Shown piece by piece: positions 5,490 to 48,500 of a stretch of DNA of 64,000 nt. This stretch comes from the human T2T-CHM13v2.0 reference genome, Homo sapiens. The DNA lies in assembly GCA_009914755.4 (NCBI GenBank), contig CP086569.2, positions 62,304,001 to 62,368,000 of the forward strand, given 5' to 3'. The translations under genes were made by a program, and so were the position numbers. A model generated the notes under the pieces. It did not search any database, was not told the origin of the DNA, and saw only the letters and a list, made by a program, of their open reading frames with translations. Each line of letters starts with the position of its first letter. The stretch's first letter is position 1.

Positions 5490-6469
5490 TAAAAACAACA
5501 GCAGTACAAGAGTGCTTGAGTCATGACTGTCGTGAATTTAGGATGTGCCAACCTAAGATCAGCCAGATACTTCTAAGATGTAAACATTAAGCATTGTTAT
5601 TTTAGGTGATTTATTGACACCTATTTCTTTATAGACAGGAATGCAAGTGCAGCACTGAATTGTGTGCCATTGCTCGTTTATAAGATACACATGTAGATGA
5701 TCCAGAATATTCTTATACATTTTTCAGTGTTATCAAAATACAAATGCAGAATTAAAAGATTTCTCAAAACACATGGACTTGGCCTTTCCCCTTACTCAGT
5801 TACCTGAAACTGTCTTCAGCCTCTACTTGAAGATGCTTCTGCTGAGGAGGAGCATTTTCATCATTGCTGTTCTATGTTATTACCAAATTTTTTAATACAG
5901 GCAATTTCTTACTTACAAATGGATATATTCTAAAAGTACTGTTGTAAGCTTATTGTTTGGAACGCTGGATGCATTTCCTTCTATAAATAATGCTATCCAT
6001 GACATTTACACTGTTATGCCAACCAGTATCATTTTATTAACTTTTAATTTAGTGGACTCGAAGACCTTCCCCACAATTTACAATAATTCCTCTATTAAAA
6101 AACTGCATTTATAATTCTCATTTGAATTCCCTTATAGCATATCTTTTTTTAGAAACCCAACAACTAGAACAAAAATATCCTTTCTTTAGTCCCTTAACAT
6201 AGTAAAAACAGGCTTTTCTAACTCCAAACTGTTGTGGGTGACCCTTCTAGCCCTTAGCTCTAAGGACAGTCCTCCAATATGAGCAAGGAAAACGAAGGGA
6301 CAGAGGTTTTAGAGAGGGAGGCAAGTTGGGTGATATGAGTATCTGGAAAGGGAAGGGTAGGATTTATTTGGGATGAACAGTGAGTTTCTAAAATGGAAGT
6401 TTGCATTGCTTGTCAGCCTTTTGGCTAAGATCAGGTGTAGTATCAGTTTAAAATGGGGGTTTGTTGTGG

Positions 6470-6955
6470 GTTGAATTGTGTCCTCCAGAAAGCTGTGTTG
6501 AAGTTCTAACCCGTGGTACCTGTGAATGGGATCTTATTTAGAAATAGGATCTTTGCAGATGTAATTAAGATGTAATTGAAAATGGGGTCATACTGGAGTA
6601 GAGTGGGCCCTTTATCCAATATGACTGGCATCCATATAAAAGAAGAGAGACAGAGAGAATGCAGTGTGAAGACACAGATACAGAGAACACCATGTGACTA
6701 CAGAGGTAAAGATTGAAGTGCTGCACCTCCAAGCCAAGGAACACCAAGGATTGCCACCAAACTATCAGAAGCTAGAAAGAGATAAGGAAAGATTCTCTTC
6801 TACAGGTTTCAGAGGGAGCATAACCCTGCCAACATCTTGATTTTGGACTTTTAACCCTCAGAACTGGTAGGCGATACATTTCTGTTGTTTTAAGCAACCA
6901 AGTTTTTGGTACTTTATTACTGCAGCTACAAGAAACTAATACAGGATTCTTAGCA
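6470..6955 (+). mobile_element. MaLR-type LTR (MLT1/MST-like), ends …cagactaatacag-like motif (agaaactaatacag)
   Basis: Recognised conserved MaLR LTR 3' block (…cagaactggtaggcgatacatttctgttgttttaagcaacc…actaatacag). Confidence 0.6.
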
Positions 6956-21483: not shown

Positions 21484-21574
21484 AAGCATCACTCTGAGAA
21501 TAAGGGCCTAGACAAAGTGATGGAGACTCAAGCCCAAGTGGATGAACTGAAAGGAATCATGGTCAGAAACATAG
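21484..21574 (+). CDS. VAMP7: VAMP7 exon 5 (KHHSENKGLDKVMETQAQVDELKGIMVRNI + 1 nt); acceptor ttttcttatag|a, donor atag|gtatgt
   Basis: 91 nt; start of SNARE motif; translation matches VAMP7. Confidence 0.95.
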
Positions 21575-27099: not shown

Positions 27100-27545
27100 T
27101 CTGCTTCACCAAATTTTAGACAAGCTCCTCTGAGCACTCTGTTAAACTAGGTCTCATCCTCGGGCTCTGTCCTTGGCCTGCCTAAGGAAGTCTTAGCAAA
27201 GAATCCTGCTAATACCCCACCCTTGATCAAGTTCCTTGTCCCCTATATTTGATATATAAGTCCGGCCAGCTTTTAGCAGGAATCCTGTTAGGCCAGTTTA
27301 GAGAGAATCCCCTTGCCCTTGATGCCTCCTCTTAGTAATTTTCCATCCTCTGACCCCCTCACTCTGTTCATTGGCCACAAATCCCCACTGGTCTTGGTTG
27401 TGTTAGGAGTTGAGCTCAATCTCTCCCCTCCATTGTGATAGCCTTGACCCCTATTGCAGTAATCTCAAAATCTGCCTTACCATTTTTAAACCAGTGTCAG
27501 AATAATTTTTCTTTAACAATATCTCTTCTAACATCCTTCTTGCCT
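27100..27545. mobile_element. Unclassified ~450-bp interspersed sequence interrupting the old L1 (possibly a solo LTR); family not recognised
   Basis: L1 ORF2 homology stops at ~27100 and resumes at ~27545; intervening sequence GC-richer and non-L1. Confidence 0.3.
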
Positions 27546-28253
27546 TGTTCCTAAGTATTTTTTTATGCTATTGTAAGTGGAATTTTTCTCTTTCATTTTC
27601 GGATTGTTCAGTACTAATGTATAGAAATTTTATTGATTTTTATAAATTGGTGTTGTATCATACAACCTTGTTCTCATTTATTAGTTCTAATAGCTTTTTA
27701 ATAGTTTCCTTAGGATTTTCTCTATATAGAATCATGCTACTTGCAAATAGAGATAGTTTTAATTCTTCCTTTTCAATCTGGATGCTTTTCATTTCTTTTT
27801 ATTGCTTAATTGCCCTAGCTAGAACCTCCAGTATAATGTTGAATAGAAGTGGTAAGAGTGGACATCATTGTCTTATTCCTGCTCTTAGGGAGATCTTGAA
27901 GAATCTTCCACAATTAAGTATGAGGTTAGCTGTGGGTTTTTCATAGATGTCCTTTATCAGGTTGAGGAAGTTTCTTTTTCTTATTTGTTGAGTGGTTTTA
28001 TCATTAAACAGTGTTGGATTTTGTCAATTTTTTTTACATCTATTGAAATGATGGTTTTTGTTCTTTATTAATATGATGTATTATAACAATTGATTTTCAG
28101 ATATTAAATCAACCTTGTGTTTCTGAAATGAATCCCACTGCATCATGGTGTATAGTCCTTTTTGCATATTATTGGATTCATCCTGCCAGTAGTCTGTTGA
28201 GGATTTGTTAAATGTCTGTATTTTTAAGAGTTGTTGGTATATCATTTTCTTTT

Positions 28254-29582
28254 ATTTATTTATTTATTTTATTATTTTTTTTTATTGATCATTCTTGGGT
28301 GTTTCTCACAGACGGGGATTTGGCAGGGTCATGGGACAATAGTGGAGGGAAGATCAGCAGATAAACAAGTGAACAAAGGTCTCTGGTTTTCCTAGGCAGA
28401 GGACCCTGCGGCCTTCCACAGTGTTTGTGTCCCTGGGTACTTGAGATTAGGGAGTGGTGATGACTCTTAACGAGCATGCTGCCTTCAAGCATCTGTTTAA
28501 CAAAGCACATTTGCACCGCCCTTAATCCATTTAACCCTGAGTGGACACAGCACATGTTTCAGAGAGCACAGGGTTGGGGGTAAGGTCATAGATCAACAGG
28601 ATCCCAAGGCAGAAGAATTTTTCTTAGTACAGAACAAAATGAAAAGTCTCCCATGTCTACTTCTTTCTTCACAGACACAGCAACCATCCGATTTCTCAAT
28701 CTTTTCCCCACCTTTCCCCCTTTTCTATTCCACAAAACCGCCATTGTCATCATGGCCCGTTCTCAATGAGCTATTGGGTACACCTCCCAGACGGGGCGGC
28801 TGCTGGGCGGAGGGGCTCCTCACTTCGCAGACGGGGCGGCTGCCGGGTGGAGGGTCTCCTCACTTCTCAGACAGGGCGGCCGGGCAGCGACGCTCCTCAC
28901 CTCCCAGAAGGGGCGGCGGGGCAGAGGCGCTCCCCACATCTCAGACGATGGGCGGCCGGGCAGAGACGCTCCTCACTTCCTAGATGGGATGGCGGCTGGG
29001 CAGAGACGCTCCTCACTTCCTAGATGGGATGGCGGCCGGGCAGAGATGCTCCTCACTTTCCAGACTGGGCAGCCAGGCAGAGGGGCTCCTCACATCCCAG
29101 ACGATGGGTGCCCAGGCAGAGACGCTCCTCACTTCCCAGACGGGGTGGCGGCTGGGCAGAGGCTGCAATCTCGGCACTTTGGGAGGCCAAGGCAGGCGGC
29201 TGGGAGGTGGAGGTTGCAGCGAGCCGAGATCGCGCCACTGCACTCCAGCCTGGGCACCATTGAGCACTGAGTGAACGAGACTCCGTCTGCAATCCCGGCA
29301 CCTCGGGAGGCCGAGGCTGGCGGATCACTCGCGGTTAGCAGCTGGAGACCAGCCCGGCCAACACAGCGAAACCCCGTCTCCACCAAAAAAATACGAAAAC
29401 CAGTCAGGCGTGGCAGCACTCGGCAGGCTGAGGCAGGAGAATCAGGCAGGGAGGTTGCAGTGAGCCGAGATAGCAGTAGTACAGTCCAGCTTCGGCTGGG
29501 CATCAGAGGGAGACCGTGGAAAGAGAGGGAGAGGGAGACCGTGGGGAGAGTGAGAGGGGGAGGGGGAGAGGGAGAGGGAGAG
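28254..29582 (-). mobile_element. SVA retrotransposon (hominid-specific), antisense: poly(A)/(TAAA)n tail 28254-28283, SINE-R 28284-~28770, VNTR ~28770-29150, Alu-like ~29150-29495, (CCCTCT)n hexamer ~29495-29582; TSD cattttctttt at ~28243-28253 and 29584-29594
   Basis: All four SVA modules recognised in reverse-complement order; GC-rich 37-50-bp VNTR units (…cctcacttcccagacggggcggctgccgggcggag…). Confidence 0.9.
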
Positions 29583-29775
29583 CCATTTTCTTTTCTTGTG
29601 ATGTCTTTGTTTGGTTTTGATACCAGGGTAATGCTGGGCTCATAGAATGAGTCAAGAAGTGTTCCCCTTTTCTTCTATTTTGGAAAGATTTGTGAAAGTT
29701 TTGTATTAATTCTTGAAATGTTTGGTAGAATTCACCTTTGAAGCCACCTGGGCTTGGGCTTTTCTTTGTGTGAAG

Positions 29776-30120
29776 CTTTTTTGTTTTTGTTTTTGTTTTT
29801 TGAGATGGGGTCTGTCTGTCACCCAGGCTGGAGTGCAGTGACATGATCCTCTCTAATTCCTCTTTCATTCCCTTGGTGGGAGGGTTACCTGCAGCCTTGA
29901 CCTCCTGGGCTCCGGTAATCTTCCCACCTCAGCCTCCCAAGCAGCTGGGACTGCAGGCATGTGCCACCACACCTGGCTAATTTTTGTTTTTTGGTTTTTT
30001 TGTAGAGACAAGGTCTTGCCATGTTGCCCAGGCTAGTCTCAAACTCCTGGGCTCAAGCGATCCACTTGCCTCAGCCTACCAAAGTGCTAGGATTACAGGC
30101 ATGAGCCTCCATGCCCGGCC
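29776..30120 (-). mobile_element. Alu (with ~35-bp internal non-Alu insertion), nested in old L1
   Basis: …gagatggggtctgtctgtcacccaggctggagtgcagtg…ccatgcccggcc. Confidence 0.85.
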
Positions 30121-30804: not shown

Positions 30805-33202
30805 ATTTAATTGATACATAATATTTGTACACATTTATGGGGTACGTGTGATATTTTGTTACATGCAAAGACTGTGTAATGATCAAGTCAGGATATATGG
30901 GGTGTCCATCAGCTCAAGAATTTATTTCTGTGTGATGGGAACATTTCAAATTCTCTCTTCTAGCTATTTTGAAATATATAATACACTATTGTTAACTTTA
31001 GTCACCCTACTCTGCTATCAAACATTAGAACTTATTCCTTCTATCCAACTGTGTGTTTGTACCTATTAACCATCCTCTCATATTCCCTGCTCGGCCCCAC
31101 ATACCCACACCCTTCCTAGCCTCTGGTATCTATTGTGCTATTGTCTACCTCCATGAGATCAACTGTTTTAGTTCCCACATGTGAGTAAGAACATGTGATA
31201 TTTGTCTTTCCATGCCTGCCTTATATCACTTAACATAATAACCTCCAGTTACATCCATGTTGCTGTAAATGGCATGACTTCATTCTATTTCATGGTCAAA
31301 TAGTATTCCATTGTGTTTATAAACCACATTTTCTTTATCCATTCATCCATTCATGGACACTTAGGTTGACTCCATATCTTTGCTATTGTGAATAGGGATG
31401 CAATAAATATGCAAGTGCAGATATCCCGTCTATACACTGATTTCTTTTCCTTTGCATAAATACCCAGTAGTAGGATTGCTGGATCATATGGTAGTTTAAT
31501 TTTTAGTTTTTGGGGAAATCTCCACACTGGTTTCCATAGTAGCTGCACTAGTTTACTTTCCCACCAACAGTGTGTAAGTGTTTTTTTTTTTTTTCCTTAT
31601 ACTAGCCAGCATCTGTTATTTTGTATCTTTTTAGTAACCATTCTAACTGGGGTAACATGATATCTCATTTTGGCTTTTATTTGCATTTCTATGATGTTGA
31701 GCATTTTTTCATATACCTTTTGGCCATTTGTATGTCTTCTTTTGAGAAATGGCTATTCATGTCCTCTGCCCACTTTTTAAGGGGATTATTTGTATATCTC
31801 CTGTTGAGTTCATTATATATTCTGGATATTATTCCCTTATCAAATGAATAGTTTGCAACTATTTTCTCCCATTCAACTGGTTGTCTCTTCACTCTTGATT
31901 ATTTCCTTTGCTGTGCAAAAGCTTTTTTGTTTAATATAGTCCTATTTGTCTATTTTTCTTTTCGTTACCTGTCCTTTTGAGGTGTTAGCCATAAAATCTT
32001 TTCCTAGAGCAGTGTTCTGAAGTGTTTCCCCTATGTTTTCTTCTAGTAGGTTTATAGTTCTGGGTCTGAAATTTAAGTCTTTAATCTATCTTGGTTGATT
32101 TTTGTATGTGATGAGAGACAGAGGTCCAGTTTAATTCTTCCACATATGGATATCCAGTTTTCCCAATACCATTTATTGAAGAAAGTGTCCTTTCCCCAGT
32201 GTACGTCCTTGGCACCTTTGTTGAAAATCAGTTGCCTATATATGTGTGGCTGTACATACGTGGATCAATGTCTGGCTTTTCTATTCTATTCCATCGACCT
32301 TGTGTCTGTTTTTATACCAAACCATGCTGTTTTGGTTACTGTAGCCTTGTAATATGTTTTGAAGTCAGGTAGTGTGATGCCTCCAGCTTTGTTCATTTTG
32401 CTCAGGATTGCTTTGGCTATTTGGACTCTTTTTTGGTTCCTGAAATACTAATTTTAGGATTGTTTTTTCTGTTTCTGTGAAAAATGACATTGGTACTTCG
32501 ATAGAGATTGCATTGAATCTGTAGATTGCTTTGGGCTTATGGTCATTTTAATAATATACATTCTTATGATCCATGACCATAAGATGTCTTTCTGTATCTT
32601 TGTGTCATCTTCAGTTTTTTTCATCAGTGTTTTGTAGTTTTACTTGTAGGAGTCTTTCACCTACTCGTTAAATTTATTCTTCAATATTTTATATGTTCAT
32701 AACTATTATAAATGGGATTACCTTCTTGATTTCATAAAGTTTTATTTCACCAAGTTGATTATTGATGCATAGAAACATTACAGATATTTGTATGTTGATT
32801 CTGTATCCTGCAACTTTACTGAATATATTTATCAGATCTAGGAGTTTTTTGGTGGAGTCTTTGGGTCTTTTAGACATAAGATCATATCATCTGCAAAGAG
32901 GGATAATTTGACATCCTCTTTTTCAATTTGGATGCCCTTTATTTCTTTCTCTTGCCTGATTGCTCTGGCTAGGACTTCCAGTATTGTGTTGAATAGGAGT
33001 AGTGAAACTGGGCTTCCTTCCAGTACTATGTTGAATAGGAGTGGTGAGAGTTTTCCATTTCTTAGAGGAAAGGCTTTTCGTTTTTCCCATTCCGTATGAT
33101 GTTAGCTGTGGGTTTGTCATAAATGGCCTTTATCATGTTGAGGGATATTCCTTCTATGCCTAGTTTTTTGAGAGTTTTTATCATGAAGAGATGTTGAATT
33201 TT
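30805..33202 (-). mobile_element. Older L1 (L1PB/L1MA-like) antisense, 3' end + ORF2; continues at 39774-40460 after the L1PA insertion
   Basis: Old-L1 3' end (…ttgatacataatatttgtacacatttatggggtacgtgtgatattttg…) then antisense ORF2; the RT motif …[12 protein letters not shown] reappears at 39902-40132. Confidence 0.7.
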
Positions 33203-40807: not shown

Positions 40808-40875
40808 ATCTGGTAGCTCAGCGAGGAGAAAGATTGGAATTATTGATTGACAAAACAGAAAATCTTGTGGATTCT
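40808..40875 (+). CDS. VAMP7: VAMP7 exon 6 (DLVAQRGERLELLIDKTENLVDS); acceptor ttttcag|a, donor tct|gtaagt
   Basis: 68 nt, restores phase 0; SNARE motif core (contains the conserved R of R-SNARE: AQRGE). Confidence 0.95.
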
Positions 40876-42234: not shown

Positions 42235-45190
42235 TTTATGGTAGAATAACATACGTGCAGCAAATTGTATCAAGTGTACAACTTTTAAGTGTATAGCTCA
42301 ATTATTTTTTTATATATATCTATACCCATGTAACCACCACCCAGATCTAGATAGAAAACATTACCAACACCCCAGAAGGCTGCCTCATACCCCTTCCAGT
42401 TAATAATCCCCAATAGATGTAATTATGTTTCTGACTTATATCACCACAGATAGTGTTTTGCCTGTTCTTAAAATTTATTTGTGTCTGGCCTCTTTCACTC
42501 ACTGTTATGCCTGTGAAATTCATCCACGTTTTTTATTATAGTAATCACTTATTCTTTTTTATTGTTTTATATTATTCCATTATACAAATCTACCACAATT
42601 TGTTTATCCGTTCTTCTCTGTGGGGCTTTATTTCTGGATTCTCTATTTTGTTCCATTGGTCAGTTTGTCTACCTTTATGCCAGTACCACACTGTGTTGAT
42701 TAGTATAACTTAATAGAATTCTTGAAATTAAGTAGTGTAAGTCTTCCAACTATATTCTTGTTGTCCAATATTGTCTTCACTCTTTTAGGTGCTTTGCATT
42801 TCCATATATGTTTTAGAATAAGCTTGTTTTCCATCTCTTGACCCCACAACAATGTGTATCTTTGTGACTGCATTTAATATATAGGTCACTTTAGGGGACA
42901 TTGGTATCTTGACAGTATAGAGTTTTTCGGTCCATGAACGTGACATATCTCTGCTTTTGCTTAGGATTTAAAAATTTTTCTCAGCAGTATTTTTTAGTTT
43001 TTGGTGTACAGGTCTTGCACATATTTGTTAAATTTACCCTTGAGAATATCATGCTTTTGTATTGTGTAACAAATTTTTAAATTTTGTTTCTAATTCTTTA
43101 TTGCTAGTATATGGAAATAAAGTTGGTTATTGTATATTGACCTTGTTTGTATTCTGCAACCTTAGAAAAATTCATTTACCAGTTCTGGTTACTGTTTTGT
43201 ACATTCCTGCCTTTTATTTTCCTTCCCTTATTCTGGCTAGAACCTTCTACACAATACTGAATACAAGTGATAACAGTGAACATCCTTGCCTATTGACCAT
43301 CTTGTGGGGAAAAATTCAATACTTTTTGAAAAAAATAAATTCAGTGTTAAGTTTGTGGTTAACTGTAGATTTTTTGTAGGTACCCTTTAATAGGTGGAAG
43401 AATTCCCTTTAATTCCTCATTTGAGAGTTGTATTCATGATTTTATCAAATGCTTTTTCTCCATTTATTGAGATCTTTGGTTTTTCTCCTTTATTCAGTTA
43501 GTATGGCAAATTACATTGATTTTTCAGTGTTAAACCAACTTTGCATTCCTGCAAGGTCATGACTTACTACCCTTCTTATATAACACTTTATTGGATTTGC
43601 TATTGTTTTGTTCAGGAATTTGGCATCTATGTTTATAAGAGATAGTGGTCTGTAATTTATTTTTCTCTTTAGGTTTTGGTATCAGGAATATGCTGGCCTC
43701 ATTAAACAAGTTGGGAAATCTTACCTCTCTATCTTCTGAGTTTGGGTACTATTGGTATTATCTGTCTTAGATGTTTGGAAGAATTTACTAGTAAAGCAGA
43801 TTGGGCCTCGAGTTTTCTTCGTTGGAAAATTTAAAATCTGCCATCTTGCTGTTTGTTTCCTATTTATACCATCTAGTCTTTGTTCCCTTTTTGTTCTGCC
43901 TTCCATTGGATTTAGTACATTTGTTATTCCATTATGTCTCCTTTGTCAGTTTATTAGCTATAGCTCCATTTTGTCATTTTCTGATTGCTTTAGGGTTTAC
44001 AGTATGTCTTTGATTTATAATCTCCCTTAAAGTGGCATTTTTCCACTTCATGAATAGATAAGAACCTTATAATAGTATACTTCTAGCTGTTTCTTCTTGG
44101 CCTTTATGCTATTGTTGACATATTTTTATTTACACATGTATTAAAAACTTCATAATACATTGTTGTTGTTTTTGTTTAAAGAGTTGATTATCTTTTAAAG
44201 AGATTTAAATAATAAGGGAAGTCTTTTCTGTTTACCCATGCAGCTACCATTTCAGTGCTCTTAATTCTTTTGTGTAGGCCGAGTTTCTATCTGATGTTAT
44301 TTTCTTTCTGCCTGTATGCTTTAATTTAACATATAATCTTCCATTGTAGTTCAAGTGTGTAGGTCTACTGGAAATGAATTCTTTCAGGTTTGGTATGTCT
44401 GAGAAGTTTTTATTTCACTTCCTTTTTTTTTTTGAAAGACATTTTCACTGAGTATAGAATTCTAGGTCAGTGATTTTTCTTTCTTTTAATACTTGATGAA
44501 CGGTGGTTCATCACTGTCTTTTACATTGTTTCTGACAAGAATTCTGCTGTCATTCTTACATACATAAAGTGTATTTTTTTTTCTTCTGGATGCTTTAAAG
44601 ATTTTCTCTTTATCATTGGTTTTAAGAAATTTGATTATAATATATATGCCTTGGTATATATTTCTTTATGTTTCTTTGGCTTTGAGTTTGTTGTAGTTTT
44701 CATCAAATTATGAAAATGTTTAGCTCTTTCTAGGCTTCCAGTGACATCTGTATTAAGCCACTTGAAGCTGTCCCACAACTCACTGATGCTTTGTTCATTT
44801 TTAAGTCTTTTTTCCACTATGTTTCATTTAGAATAGTTTCTATTGCTATGTCTTCAAGTTTACTTACCTTTTCTTCTGCAGTTCGCAATCTGCTGTTTCT
44901 GTCCTGTGTATGTTTCATCTTTACAGGTTTGTTTTGGATCTTTTTTATATCTTCCATGTGTCTCCTTAACATGTGCATACTTTCCTCTACCTTGAGTATA
45001 TGAAGTATATTTATAATTGAAGTGCTTATTCCACTTACATGTAATGCAAATTTTGATAGAGTTAGGTGTAGGTATCTTGCTCTTTGTTTTTTATTTGCCG
45101 CATCCCTGTCCTCTTCTTTTTTATTTTGATTACTCAAGTACTTTTTAAATTGTATTTTAACCATCTCTATTTGTTTTTTAACACTTCTAT
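42235..45190 (-). mobile_element. Ancient L1M element, antisense (3'UTR at 42235, diverged ORF2, ORF1 coiled-coil region ~44817-45212)
   Basis: Old-L1 3'UTR revcomp (acgtgcagcaaattgtatcaagtgtacaacttttaagtgtatagctcaat…); ORF 44817-45212 (-) resembles L1 ORF1 (…RLRTAEEKVSKLEDIAIETI…). Confidence 0.65.
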
Positions 45191-45595: not shown

Positions 45596-48500
45596 AAAAA
45601 AATGCTAACAATCACCTGAGCCTTCAGTGAGCCTTAATCTTTTTGCTGGTGGAGGGTCTCACCTTGATGTTGATGGCTACTGACTGATCGATCAGGCTGG
45701 TGGTTGCTGAAGGTTGTGGTGGCTGTGGCAATTTCTTAAAATAAGACAACAGTGAAGTTTACCACATTGATTGACTCTTTCACAAAAGATTTCTCTGTAG
45801 CATGTGTTGCTATTTGATAGCAATTTACTGGCAATAGAACTTCTTTCAAAATTGGAGTCAATCCTCTCAAACCCTGCTACTGCTTTATCAGCTGAGTTGA
45901 TGTAATTTTCTAAATCTTTTGTTGTCATTTCAACAGTGTTCACAGCATCTTCACCAGGAATAGTTGCCATCTCAAGAAACCACTTTCCTTGCCCATGCAT
46001 AAGAAACAACTCCTCATTCATTAAAGTTTTATCAAGAAACTGCAGCAGTTCAGTCATGTCTTCAGGCTCCAGTTCTAATTCTAGTTCTCTTCTATTTCTA
46101 CCACATCTGCAGTTACTCACTCCACTGAAGTCTTGAACCCCTCAAAGTAATTTGTGAGGGTTGTAATCAGTTTCTTCCAAACACCTGTTAATGTTTATAT
46201 TTTGACTTCCTCCCACGAATCATGAATGTTCTTAATGGCATCTAGAATGGTGAATCCTTTCTAGAAGGTCTTCAGTTTACTTTGCCCAGATCCATCAGAG
46301 GAATCATTATCTATGGCAGCTATACTAAATGTTTTTCTTAAATAATAAGACTTGAAAGTTGAAATCACTCCTTGATTCATGGGCAGCAGAATGGATGTTG
46401 TATTAGCAGGTGTGAACCCCAAAAGTCTGAGACAGGTCTCAGTTGATTTAGAAAGTTTATTTTGCCAAAGTTGAGAGCGCACACCCGTGACACAGCCTCA
46501 GGAGGTCCTGACAACATGTGCCCAAGGTGGTCAAAGCCCAGTTTGGTTTTATACATTCTAGGGAGACGTGAGACATCAGTCAACATATGCAAGATGAACA
46601 TTGGTTTGGCCTGGAAAGGCGGAACAACTCGAAGCAAAGGCGGGAAGGCTCGAAGTGGGGAGGGGGCCTCCAGGTCTTAGATAGATAAGAGACAAATGGT
46701 TCTATTCTTTTGAGTTTCTGATGAGCCTCTCCAAAGGAGGCAATCAGATACGCATTTATCTCAGTGAGCAGAGGGGTGACTTTGAATAGAATGGGAGGCA
46801 GGTTGGCCATAAGCAGTTCCCAGCTTGACTTTTCCCTTTAGCTTAGTGATTTGGAGGCCCCAAGATTTATTTTCCTTTCACACAGGCATGAAAACGACAT
46901 TTATCTCCTCGTAAGTCTCCATCAGAGCTCTTGAGTGACTAGGTTCATTGTCAATGAGCAGTAATACTTTGAAAGGAATCTTTTCTTTTTGAGCAGCAGA
47001 TCTCCACAGATCTTCTGTACACCATCCTGTAAACAGATGTGCTATCTTCCAGGTTTGTTGTTCCATTTCAAGAGCACAGGCAGAGTATATTTAGCATAAT
47101 TCTTACGGGCCCTAGATTTTCAGAATGGTAAACTACCATTGGCTTCAGCTTAAAGTCATCAGCTGCATTGGTCCCTAATAAAAGTCAGCTTATCTTTTGA
47201 AGCTTTGAAGCCAGTCATTGGCTTCTCTCTATGAAAGTCCTAGATGGCATCTTCTTCCAAAAGAAGGGTGTTTTGTTTACATTGAAAAATCTGTTGTTTA
47301 GTATAGCCACCTTTATCAATGATCTTAGCTAGGTCTCCTGGATAACTTACTGTGGCTTCTCTCTCAGCACTTGCTGCTTCACCTTGTACTTTTATGTTAT
47401 AGAGATGGCTTCTTTCCTTAAACCTCATGAACCAACTTCTGCTAGCTTTAAACTTTTCTTCTGCACCTTCCTCGCCTCTCTCAGCCTTCATAGAGTTGAA
47501 GAGTTAGGGCCTTGCTCTGTATTAGGCTTTGGCCTAAGGAAATGTTATAGCTGGTTTAATCTTCTATCCAGACCCCTAAAACATTCTCCATATCAGCAGT
47601 AAGTCTGTTTTGCTTTCTTATATGTGTGTTCACTGGAGTAGCACTCCTGATTTCCTTCAAGAACTGTTCTTTGCATTCACAATTTGGTTAACTGTTTGTC
47701 ACAGGACACCTAGCTTTAGGCCCATCTCAGCTTTCGACATGCCTTACTCACTAAGCTTAATTATTTTTATCTTTTGATTTAAAGCAAGGGATGTGTGACT
47801 TTTCCTTTCACTTGAATACATAGATGCCATTGTAAGGTTATTAATTGGCCAAATTTCAATATTGTGTCTCGGCAAATAGGGAGGCCTGAGAGGGAGAGAG
47901 ATAAGAGAATAGCTGGTCAGTGAACAGTTAGAACACACAACATTTATCCGTTAGCTCCGTCATCTTATATAGGCACAGTTTATGGCACCCGAAAACAATC
48001 ACAGTAGTAACATCAGAGGTCACAGATCGTCATAACAGATAGAATGAAAATAATGAAAAGTTTGAAATGTTATAAGAATTACCAAAACACAGACATGAGG
48101 CGACCACATGCTGTTAGAAAAATGGTGCTGCCGCATGTTCTCACTCCTAAGTGGGAGTTGAACAATGAGAACACATGGACACAGTGAGGGGAACATCACA
48201 CACTGGGGCCTGTCGGGGAGTGGGGGCTAGGGGAGGGATAGCATTAGGAGAAATACCTAATGTAGATAACGGGTTGATGGGTACAGCAAACCACCATGTC
48301 ACGTGTATACCTGTGTAAGAAACCTGCACGTTCTGCACATGTATCCTAGAACTTAAAGTATAATAATAATAATAAAAAGAAACAAAAAGTGCAGGCCAAG
48401 CAGGAAAAAAAAAAAAACAAACCAGAAAAATGGTGCTGATAGTCTCATCATGGGGTTTCCACAGACCTTCGATTTGCCAAAAAAAAAAAAAAATCCATGA

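What the first reader, a model, noticed from the sequence alone, without database searches (positions are those of the whole stretch)
28243..29594. Hominid-specific SVA retrotransposon inserted antisense into an older L1 within VAMP7 intron 5, with 11-bp TSDs
All SVA modules are present in reverse-complement order (tail, SINE-R, GC-rich VNTR, Alu-like, CCCTCT hexamer). Flanking cattttctttt direct repeats show it is a discrete retrotransposition event into the old L1. SVAs are young and often polymorphic. They carry strong splice sites, CpG-rich VNTRs that attract methylation, and can act as enhancers or exon-trapping elements. One inside an intron of a gene already subject to allele-specific methylation deserves attention. 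The many ORF-track hits between 28639 and 29503 are VNTR artefacts.
Basis: partly seen in the sequence, partly recalled or inferred. Interest (0 to 1): 0.55.

Follow-up and report, generated by a model that had tools for sequence, protein, structure and literature searches.

The report
Old fixed SVA in VAMP7 intron
This is a real, complete SVA retrotransposon in intron 5 of human VAMP7, but it is an already catalogued copy shared with bonobo, not a young or variable insertion, and nothing here shows that it does anything.

Summary
Window 28243-29594 holds a full-length 1,330-bp SVA on the minus strand, with hexamer repeat, Alu-like region, VNTR, SINE-R, AATAAA and A-rich tail. It is flanked by exact 11-bp direct repeats (CATTTTCTTTT). 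It lies in VAMP7 intron 5, inside an old L1.

The direct repeats are a true target-site duplication. Gorilla, gibbon, baboon, snub-nosed monkey and two New World monkeys all have the two flanks joined through one copy of the target. Bonobo has the same SVA at the same junction (97.7% identity).

So the element inserted in the human-Pan ancestor after the gorilla split. It is very probably fixed, not young or polymorphic.

The element appears in Damert 2018 as hs_SVA_D1 chrX:155136954-155137446, with a chrY PAR2 twin. There it sits among the "human-specific" elements, which the bonobo assembly contradicts.

The host L1 is also on the minus strand, so the SVA is co-oriented with the L1. Both are antisense to VAMP7.

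I found no evidence of exonization or regulatory function. Ordinary; already known.

The parts
28243..28253 (.). Target-site duplication, copy next to the SVA 3' tail (CATTTTCTTTT)
   Evidence: Exact 11-nt repeat of 29584-29594. The target is present once in the empty sites of gorilla, gibbon, baboon and Rhinopithecus.
28254..28280 (-). Decayed poly(A) tail. On the minus strand it reads AAAAAATAATAAAATAAATAAATAAAT, now a (TAAA)n-like microsatellite.
   Evidence: The bonobo copy differs here by microsatellite-type changes.
28281..28773 (-). SINE-R module (493 nt) ending in the polyadenylation signal AATAAA (28286..28281)
   Evidence: 7 mismatches and 1 indel over 487 nt against the published hs_SVA_D1 consensus, the best of 10 consensuses. 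3/3 D1-versus-DR and 13/13 D1-versus-SVA_C positions are D1. The length equals the catalogued chrX:155136954-155137446 entry.
28774..29161 (-). GC-rich VNTR, about 9.8 units of about 40 nt
   Evidence: TRF 28781-29161, period 40, 76% matches. GC 0.65-0.71. The human-bonobo alignment has no length difference here.
29162..29510 (-). Alu-like region. Alu fragments are antisense to the SVA, so they read Alu-sense on the + strand. Boundaries are approximate.
   Evidence: BLAST hits to 18 Alu segments of the window. The orientations of those Alus, read from Rfam SRP-model hits, show that the + strand reads Alu-sense. An internal 75-nt direct repeat, D3, reflects the two Alu pieces.
29511..29583 (-). 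5' (CCCTCT)n-type hexamer region. The element's first base on the minus strand is a G (29583) that is absent from the empty sites.
   Evidence: TRF period 6, 9.8 copies, 29523-29582. 5' sequence. Empty-site alignment. Bonobo has one extra hexamer unit.
29584..29594 (.). Target-site duplication, copy next to the SVA 5' end (CATTTTCTTTT)
27400..28242 (-). Host L1 fragment, part on the SVA 3' side (ORF2 reverse-transcriptase region). The limits given are minimal.
   Evidence: The joined flanks translated on the minus strand match human L1 ORF2p residues 465-752 (8uw3_A, E 9.3e-40), ungapped across the junction. The L1 is present in Old and New World monkeys.
29595..29775 (-). Host L1 fragment, part on the SVA 5' side. 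It is followed by an older minus-strand Alu at about 29776-30120.
   Evidence: The Alu is placed by Rfam SRP hits at 29800-29977 and 30003-30119 on the minus strand.
21484..21574 (+). VAMP7 exon 5 (upstream boundary of the host intron)
   Evidence: tblastn and splice-site reconstruction give the exact 220-aa VAMP7 protein. PDB VAMP7 4b93 matches at E 2e-119. The exact sequence is named human VAMP7 isoform 1 in the protein collection.
40808..40875 (+). VAMP7 exon 6 (downstream boundary of the host intron)

Best explanation
This is a full-length SVA retrotransposon of the basal subfamily SVA_D1.

Inferred from the hallmarks: an SVA RNA, polyadenylated at its own AATAAA, was copied into the genome by the L1 machinery acting in trans (target-primed reverse transcription). 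The + strand was nicked after the T-run of 5'-CATTTTCTTTT/CT-3', inside an ancient minus-strand L1 ORF2 fragment in VAMP7 intron 5. A staggered second nick 11 bp away produced the target-site duplication.

Shown: the event happened on the X chromosome of the human-Pan ancestor, after the gorilla lineage split off.

Inferred: the copy was later carried to the Y when the human PAR2 region formed, and it is very probably fixed in humans.

Inferred: today it is most likely a neutral, decaying, CpG-rich intronic repeat. It is antisense to VAMP7, the orientation in which its own polyadenylation signal is not presented to the VAMP7 transcript. I could not demonstrate any effect on VAMP7.
For: Architecture:
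- All five modules are in canonical order on the minus strand.

Retrotransposition hallmarks:
- AATAAA, an A-rich tail and an exact 11-bp TSD.
- A T-rich nick site, and an extra 5' G that is not in the empty sites.
- No 5' or 3' transduced sequence lies between the element and its TSDs.

Empty sites:
- Gorilla L011, Hylobates moloch L006, Papio anubis L005, Rhinopithecus L002, Saimiri L001 and a second New World monkey L004 all lack the element.
- In gorilla and gibbon the two flank alignments overlap by exactly 11 bp. In the monkeys they overlap by 7-9 bp as BLAST trimmed them.
- The human flanks joined with one TSD copy align without gaps to gorilla, gibbon, baboon and Rhinopithecus.

Filled site in bonobo:
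- L010 18001-19329 is 97.7% identical over 1,330 bp, with the same right junction.

Species identities:
- Accessions were matched to species from papers.
- Substitution divergence from human over the gene fits: bonobo 1.10%, gorilla 1.23%, gibbon 3.2%, Old World monkeys 5.4%, New World monkeys 9-10%.

Timing:
- Only 3 SINE-R differences from the D1 consensus are shared by human and bonobo (2 are CpG decay). 5 are human-only and 7 bonobo-only.
- In +/-6 kb of flanks, 20 informative sites group human with bonobo, against 7 (human-gorilla) and 3 (bonobo-gorilla).

Subfamily:
-.
- Damert 2018 independently lists hs_SVA_D1 chrX:155136954-155137446 and chrY:59239960-59240452.

Host L1 orientation and continuity.
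Against: - Chimpanzee and orangutan DNA could not be retrieved. The time bracket rests on one bonobo haplotype and one gorilla haplotype.
- Damert 2018 places the element among 54 "human-specific" hs_SVA_D1 elements. I attribute this to a failed LiftOver to panTro4 (methods) but could not verify it.
- The nick site TTTT/CT differs from the L1 endonuclease optimum TTTT/AA in the two bases after the nick.
- Fixation in humans, and the absence of function, are inferred. I had no population, methylation or RNA data.
- The match to the catalogue entry uses hg19 coordinates for VAMP7 that I recalled from memory. It is backed by the exact 493-nt length and by the chrY twin.
Confidence: 0.93

Rival explanations
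1. It is a young, human-specific and possibly polymorphic SVA insertion.
For: Damert 2018 Additional file 2 gives no chimpanzee or gorilla orthologue for chrX:155136954-155137446. The block with blank columns has exactly 54 entries, equal to the paper's count of human-specific hs_SVA_D1.
Against: - Bonobo carries the same element at the same junction, with 34 substitutions accumulated since.
- The catalogue's call rests on LiftOver to panTro4, and only lifted elements were inspected by hand.
Confidence: 0.02
2. The insertion is older, from the human-chimpanzee-gorilla ancestor or earlier. Its absence from gorilla would then reflect incomplete lineage sorting or a precise deletion.
For: - Human-gorilla divergence (1.23%) and human-bonobo divergence (1.10%) are close at this locus.
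- 10 of 30 informative flank sites disagree with the species tree.
- Damert 2018 reports such discordant SVA_D cases elsewhere.
Against: - The majority of informative sites (20 of 30) follow the species tree around the site.
- Only 3 shared post-consensus changes exist in the SINE-R.
- The gorilla empty site is clean, with a single target copy.
- Gibbon is also empty.
Confidence: 0.05
3. The element has been co-opted. It would act as a cis-regulatory or epigenetic element, or as a source of cryptic exons, that influences VAMP7 expression or its Xi/Y allele-specific silencing.
For: - It is the only CpG-rich block in the gene body apart from two Alu-sized patches: 57 CpGs, GC 0.57, observed/expected 0.53.
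- The VNTR length is unchanged between human and bonobo.
- On the VAMP7-sense strand there is an acceptor-like site (tttctcacag|A at 28311/28312) behind the poly-T, and a donor-like GGG|GTAAGG at 28579/28580.
- VAMP7 silencing involves CpG methylation.
Against: - The reported silencing-associated methylation is at the promoter CpG island, about 26 kb upstream.
- None of the 134 VAMP7-family proteins retrieved contains SVA-derived sequence beyond generic Alu similarity.
- Human-bonobo divergence inside the element (about 2%) is higher than in the flanks (1.1%) and is CpG-driven. This is the pattern of unconstrained decay.
- The hypothetical 268-nt exon would shift the reading frame.
Confidence: 0.05

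Closest known systems
SVA_D1 subfamily of SVA retrotransposons (hs_SVA_D1 of Damert 2018, Mob DNA 9:30; D1a of Levy et al. 2017)
   Same: - Same five-module architecture.
- The SINE-R is 98.4% identical to the published consensus.
- It has all 3 positions that separate D1 from the Repbase-type SVA_DR, and all 13 tested positions that separate D1 from SVA_C.
- It lacks the 20-bp deletion of D2.
- It has the age expected of a basal D element.
- This very locus is listed as hs_SVA_D1.
   Different: - It is scored as human-specific in that catalogue but is present in bonobo.
- Its VNTR is short, 388 bp.
- A roughly 20-nt gap in the Alu-like region relative to the consensus as I remember it. This rests on memory only and was not tested.
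Disease-causing intronic SVA insertions, such as the antisense SVA_F in TAF1 intron 32 (X-linked dystonia-parkinsonism). From my own knowledge; not checked here.
   Same: An intronic SVA antisense to its host gene on the X chromosome, with a CpG-rich VNTR and a hexamer repeat.
   Different: Those are recent, human-specific, polymorphic and pathogenic. This copy predates the human-Pan split, sits in both lineages, and has no known phenotype.
Ordinary L1-mediated non-LTR insertions (Alu, processed pseudogenes)
   Same: TSD of 7-20 bp, an A-rich tail, a T-rich nick site and a clean empty site in outgroups.
   Different: It is a composite non-autonomous element with VNTR and SINE-R modules, rather than a 7SL-derived SINE or an mRNA copy.

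Membership tests
SVA retrotransposon | 5' (CCCTCT)n hexamer repeat | tested here: met
   TRF period 6, 9.8 copies at 29523-29582. The minus strand starts GCTCTCCCTCTCCCTCTCC....
SVA retrotransposon | Alu-like region made of Alu fragments antisense to the element | tested here: met
   The + strand of 29162-29510 aligns to window Alus in the orientation that makes it Alu-sense. This uses the BLAST hits and the Alu strands from the Rfam SRP hits. The fragments are therefore antisense to the minus-strand SVA.
SVA retrotransposon | GC-rich VNTR of 35-50-nt units between the Alu-like region and SINE-R | tested here: met
   Period 40, 9.8 copies, 28781-29161, GC 0.65-0.71.
SVA retrotransposon | SINE-R module matching the family consensus and ending in AATAAA plus poly(A) | tested here: met
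   98.4% identity to the published hs_SVA_D1 SINE-R consensus. AATAAA and a 27-nt A-rich tail.
SVA retrotransposon | SINE-R derives from the HERV-K10 env/3' LTR | not tested
   I had no HERV-K reference sequence. This rests on established knowledge only.
SVA retrotransposon | L1-type insertion hallmarks: a TSD and an empty site with a single target copy | tested here: met
   Exact 11-bp TSD. Empty sites in six primates.
SVA retrotransposon | Restricted to hominoids | tested here: met
   In this locus there is no SINE-R or VNTR match in any monkey, gibbon or gorilla VAMP7 sequence. The element is present only in human and bonobo.
SVA_D1 subfamily | Three positions distinguishing D1 from SVA_DR (A53, T95, A185 of the SINE-R alignment) | tested here: met
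   Human and bonobo both have the D1 state at 3/3 positions. Consensuses come from Damert 2018 Additional file 3.
SVA_D1 subfamily | The substitutions separating D1 from SVA_C (12) | tested here: met
   13/13 differing columns in the first ~200 nt are in the D1 state. The SVA_C consensus was machine-read from a PDF figure, so only this part was used.
SVA_D1 subfamily | Lacks the 20-bp SINE-R deletion that marks D2 | tested here: met
   Aligning to D2a or D2b requires an extra indel event. The full 20 nt are present.
Human-specific / polymorphic SVA insertions (SVA_E, SVA_F and young SVA_D) | Absent from the orthologous site of all non-human apes | tested here: not met
   Present in Pan paniscus L010 18001-19329 with the same junction.

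The most novel reading that the evidence does not exclude
This human-Pan-specific, CpG-rich SVA, which has kept an unchanged VNTR length in both lineages, could act as an intragenic heterochromatin or methylation nucleation site. It could also supply a cryptic exon (candidate 28312-28579 on the VAMP7-sense strand). Either would modulate VAMP7 expression or its unusual silencing on the inactive X and the Y.
Probability: 0.04. Interest if true: 0.5.

Novelty: already known. Interest (0 to 1): 0.12.

Why it matters
It matters little as a discovery. This is a reference-genome repeat that any RepeatMasker run annotates and that has already been assigned to hs_SVA_D1 in print.

Two small points have some value.

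First, complete ape assemblies show that this copy, and its PAR2 duplicate on the Y, are wrongly counted among "human-specific" SVA_D1 elements. This illustrates how LiftOver to older chimpanzee builds inflates lineage-specific counts in subtelomeric regions.

Second, the copy predates the formation of human PAR2. Its Y-linked twin is therefore a passenger of the X-to-Y transfer, not a separate insertion.

For VAMP7 biology, the element is a candidate only in the generic sense that any intronic SVA is.

Tried and rejected
It worked later through the cluster-member id P0121.
- Exact look-ups of three ORFs from the window found nothing on record: one in the L1 flank and two spanning the junctions.
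- The 179-aa isoform P0097 was not on record.
Chimpanzee never appeared under this protein. Both therefore remain untested.
- A full-text search for SVA sequence strings found no paper.
- No supplements are held for Levy et al. 2017.
- The SVA+VAMP7 literature search returned only unrelated uses of "SVA", such as surrogate variable analysis.
- The SVA consensus I remember was used only as a lead. All subfamily tests use the published consensuses from Damert 2018.
- I considered and rejected the idea that the region is a chance juxtaposition of Alu, tandem repeat and LTR fragments. The whole 1,330 bp is missing as one block, with one target copy, in six species.
- I did not run the promoter/terminator scan, because it is built for bacterial signals.

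Full report
**1. The observation**

Read on the minus strand, it has these parts:
- A G followed by a (CCCTCT)n-type hexamer region, about 29583-29511. TRF gives period 6 and 9.8 copies.
- An Alu-like region, about 29510-29162.
- A GC-rich VNTR at 29161-28774. TRF gives period 40 and 9.8 copies. GC is 0.65-0.71.
- A 493-nt SINE-R at 28773-28281, ending in AATAAA.
- A 27-nt A-rich tail at 28280-28254.

The element is bracketed by exact copies of CATTTTCTTTT at 28243-28253 and 29584-29594. That 11-mer occurs three times in the window against 0.27 expected, and 0 of 100 shuffles reach three.

The + strand of the Alu-like region aligns to 18 Alu segments elsewhere in the window. The strands of those Alus, read from Rfam SRP-model hits, show that the + strand is Alu-sense. 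The Alu fragments are therefore antisense to the SVA, as the canonical SVA architecture requires.

**2. Genomic setting**

The window is the human VAMP7 gene on the + strand.
- tblastn and splice-site reconstruction give the exact 220-aa protein.
- It matches PDB VAMP7 at E 2e-119.
- The protein collection names this exact sequence human VAMP7 isoform 1.

A CpG island lies at 2101-2600. N-terminal extensions of several predicted VAMP7 proteins map to it, which marks a non-coding exon 1. The exons at 21484-21574 and 40808-40875 are then exons 5 and 6, so the element lies in intron 5.

The flanks belong to an old L1, but that L1 is on the minus strand. I joined the two flanks with one copy of the repeat and translated the minus strand. 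The product matches human L1 ORF2p residues 465-752 (E 9e-40), and the alignment runs ungapped across the junction.

So the SVA and the L1 are co-oriented, and both are antisense to VAMP7.

**3. Is the repeat a target-site duplication? Presence and absence in primates**

I reached orthologous VAMP7 loci, introns included, through the encoding-contig look-up. Accessions were tied to species from papers:
- L010: Pan paniscus
- L011: Gorilla gorilla
- L006: Hylobates moloch
- L005: Papio anubis
- L002: Rhinopithecus bieti
- L001: Saimiri boliviensis
- L004: a second New World monkey

Substitution divergence from human across the gene fits these identities: 1.10%, 1.23%, 3.2%, 5.4%, 5.4%, 9.8% and 8.9% respectively.

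Gorilla, gibbon, baboon, Rhinopithecus and both New World monkeys lack the element. Their two flanks abut through one copy of the target, and the gorilla site reads tctatCATTTTCTTTTcttgtg. The reconstructed human empty site aligns to gorilla, gibbon, baboon and Rhinopithecus without gaps.

Bonobo carries the element at the same place and in the same orientation. It is 97.7% identical over 1,330 bp and has the same right junction.

The 11-bp repeat is therefore a genuine TSD, and the whole element arrived as one block.

**4. Mechanism (inferred from the hallmarks)**

The hallmarks are:
- a TSD
- AATAAA followed by an A-rich tail abutting the TSD
- a T-run at the nick site (+ strand 5'-CATTTTCTTTT/CT-3')
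- a 5' G that is absent from the empty sites
- no transduced sequence between the element and its TSDs

These are the signature of L1-mediated target-primed reverse transcription of a full-length, polyadenylated SVA RNA. The two bases after the nick (CT) differ from the preferred AA.

**5. Date**

Present in human and bonobo but absent in gorilla and gibbon puts the insertion in the human-Pan ancestor.

The SINE-R supports this. Only 3 differences from the D1 consensus are shared by human and bonobo, and 2 of those are CpG decay. 5 are human-only and 7 are bonobo-only.

In +/-6 kb of flank, 20 informative sites group human with bonobo, against 7 for human-gorilla and 3 for bonobo-gorilla. Incomplete lineage sorting is therefore not needed, though it is not excluded.

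Chimpanzee and orangutan sequence could not be retrieved.

PAR2 arose in the hominin lineage (PMC6591651). The insertion predates it, so the Y-linked copy must have been carried over with PAR2. This step is an inference.

**6. Subfamily and prior knowledge**

I used consensus sequences published by Damert 2018 (PMC6139936, Additional files 3 and 4).
- The SINE-R is closest to hs_SVA_D1, with 7 mismatches and 1 indel in 487 nt. SVA_DR gives 10 mismatches and SVA_D4 gives 20.
- It has the D1 state at 3/3 D1-versus-DR positions.
- It has the D1 state at 13/13 D1-versus-SVA_C positions in the first 200 nt.
- It lacks the D2 deletion.

The same paper's Additional file 2 lists "hs_SVA_D1 chrX:155136954-155137446". 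That entry is 493 bp, the exact length found here. It lies where I expected the element from VAMP7's hg19 coordinates, which I recalled from memory. A twin is listed at chrY:59239960-59240452.

Both entries have empty panTro4 and gorGor5 columns. That block has 54 entries, which equals the paper's count of human-specific hs_SVA_D1.

The paper scored species-specificity by LiftOver and inspected only the elements that lifted over. The label for this element is most likely an artefact of the older chimpanzee assembly, and the bonobo assembly contradicts it.

**7. Function**

Nothing I could test indicates a function.
- The ORFs across the VNTR and Alu-like region have no Pfam match.
- Of the 134 VAMP7-family proteins I retrieved, none maps to the SVA apart from the Alu-derived tail of a Saimiri isoform, which hits every Alu.
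- Human-bonobo divergence inside the element is about twice that of the flanks. 12 of the substitutions are CpG transitions. This is the pattern of unconstrained decay.

The element is still CpG-rich, with 57 CpGs and an observed/expected ratio of 0.53. It is one of the few CpG-dense blocks in the gene body.

The literature confirms that VAMP7/SYBL1 is silenced on the inactive X and the Y, with methylation of its CpG island. That island is the promoter, about 26 kb from the SVA.

On the VAMP7-sense strand, an acceptor-like site lies behind the poly-T (28311/28312) and a donor-like GTAAGG lies at 28580. Together they would define a 268-nt frameshifting exon. This is read from the sequence only and is untested.

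**8. Verdict**

The orientation relative to the L1 is wrong, and the suggestion of a young, polymorphic element is refuted. The element is ordinary and already catalogued.

Noticed in passing
window 28281-28773; Damert 2018 Additional file 2: The published SVA_D catalogue lists this element (chrX:155136954-155137446, hg19) and its PAR2 duplicate (chrY:59239960-59240452) as two of 54 "human-specific" hs_SVA_D1 elements. The bonobo T2T haplotype has the element, so the label is wrong, and one insertion is counted twice.
   Followed up: partly
window 28774-29161 versus L010 (bonobo): The VNTR has exactly the same length in human and bonobo, with no gap columns in the alignment. The only length changes are one hexamer unit at the 5' end and two single-base indels.
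   Followed up: partly
window about 29415 (Alu-like region): Relative to the SVA consensus as I remember it, about 20 nt are missing (GCCGAGTGC^CGCCACGCC). Bonobo shares the gap. This is a memory-based comparison and was not tested against a reference.
   Followed up: no
window 28270-28312 and 28575-28585, + strand: On the VAMP7-sense strand, the poly-T from the SVA tail is followed by tttctcacag|A, which looks like a splice acceptor. GGG|GTAAGG at 28579/28580 looks like a donor. Together they would define a 268-nt frameshifting cryptic exon. I have no expression evidence.
   Followed up: no
L010 17990-18000 (bonobo left junction): In bonobo, the TSD copy next to the tail has eroded to CATTTTATTT through changes in the (TTTA)n microsatellite that the poly(A) tail has become. 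The other TSD copy is intact.
   Followed up: yes
window 29776-30120, minus strand: An older Alu lies in the same L1 fragment about 180 bp from the SVA. At least its start is present in Old and New World monkeys. Rfam splits it into two SRP-like hits with an unusual stretch between them.
   Followed up: partly
window 6405-6620, + strand: A sub-threshold match to U2 spliceosomal RNA (37.9 bits against a gathering score of 46, E 4.8e-4). It is probably a U2 pseudogene fragment in VAMP7 intron 1.
   Followed up: no
window 44929-45087, + strand: The alternative C-terminus of a gorilla UniRef VAMP7 isoform (P0088) maps here, in intron 6. The C-terminus of Saimiri isoform X1 (P0034) is Alu-derived and hits Alus throughout the window.
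   Followed up: no
window 31403-31506 and 47513-47597, + strand: Sub-threshold Rfam matches to the mir-6130 and mir-1261 precursor families. They are probably repeat-derived.
   Followed up: no
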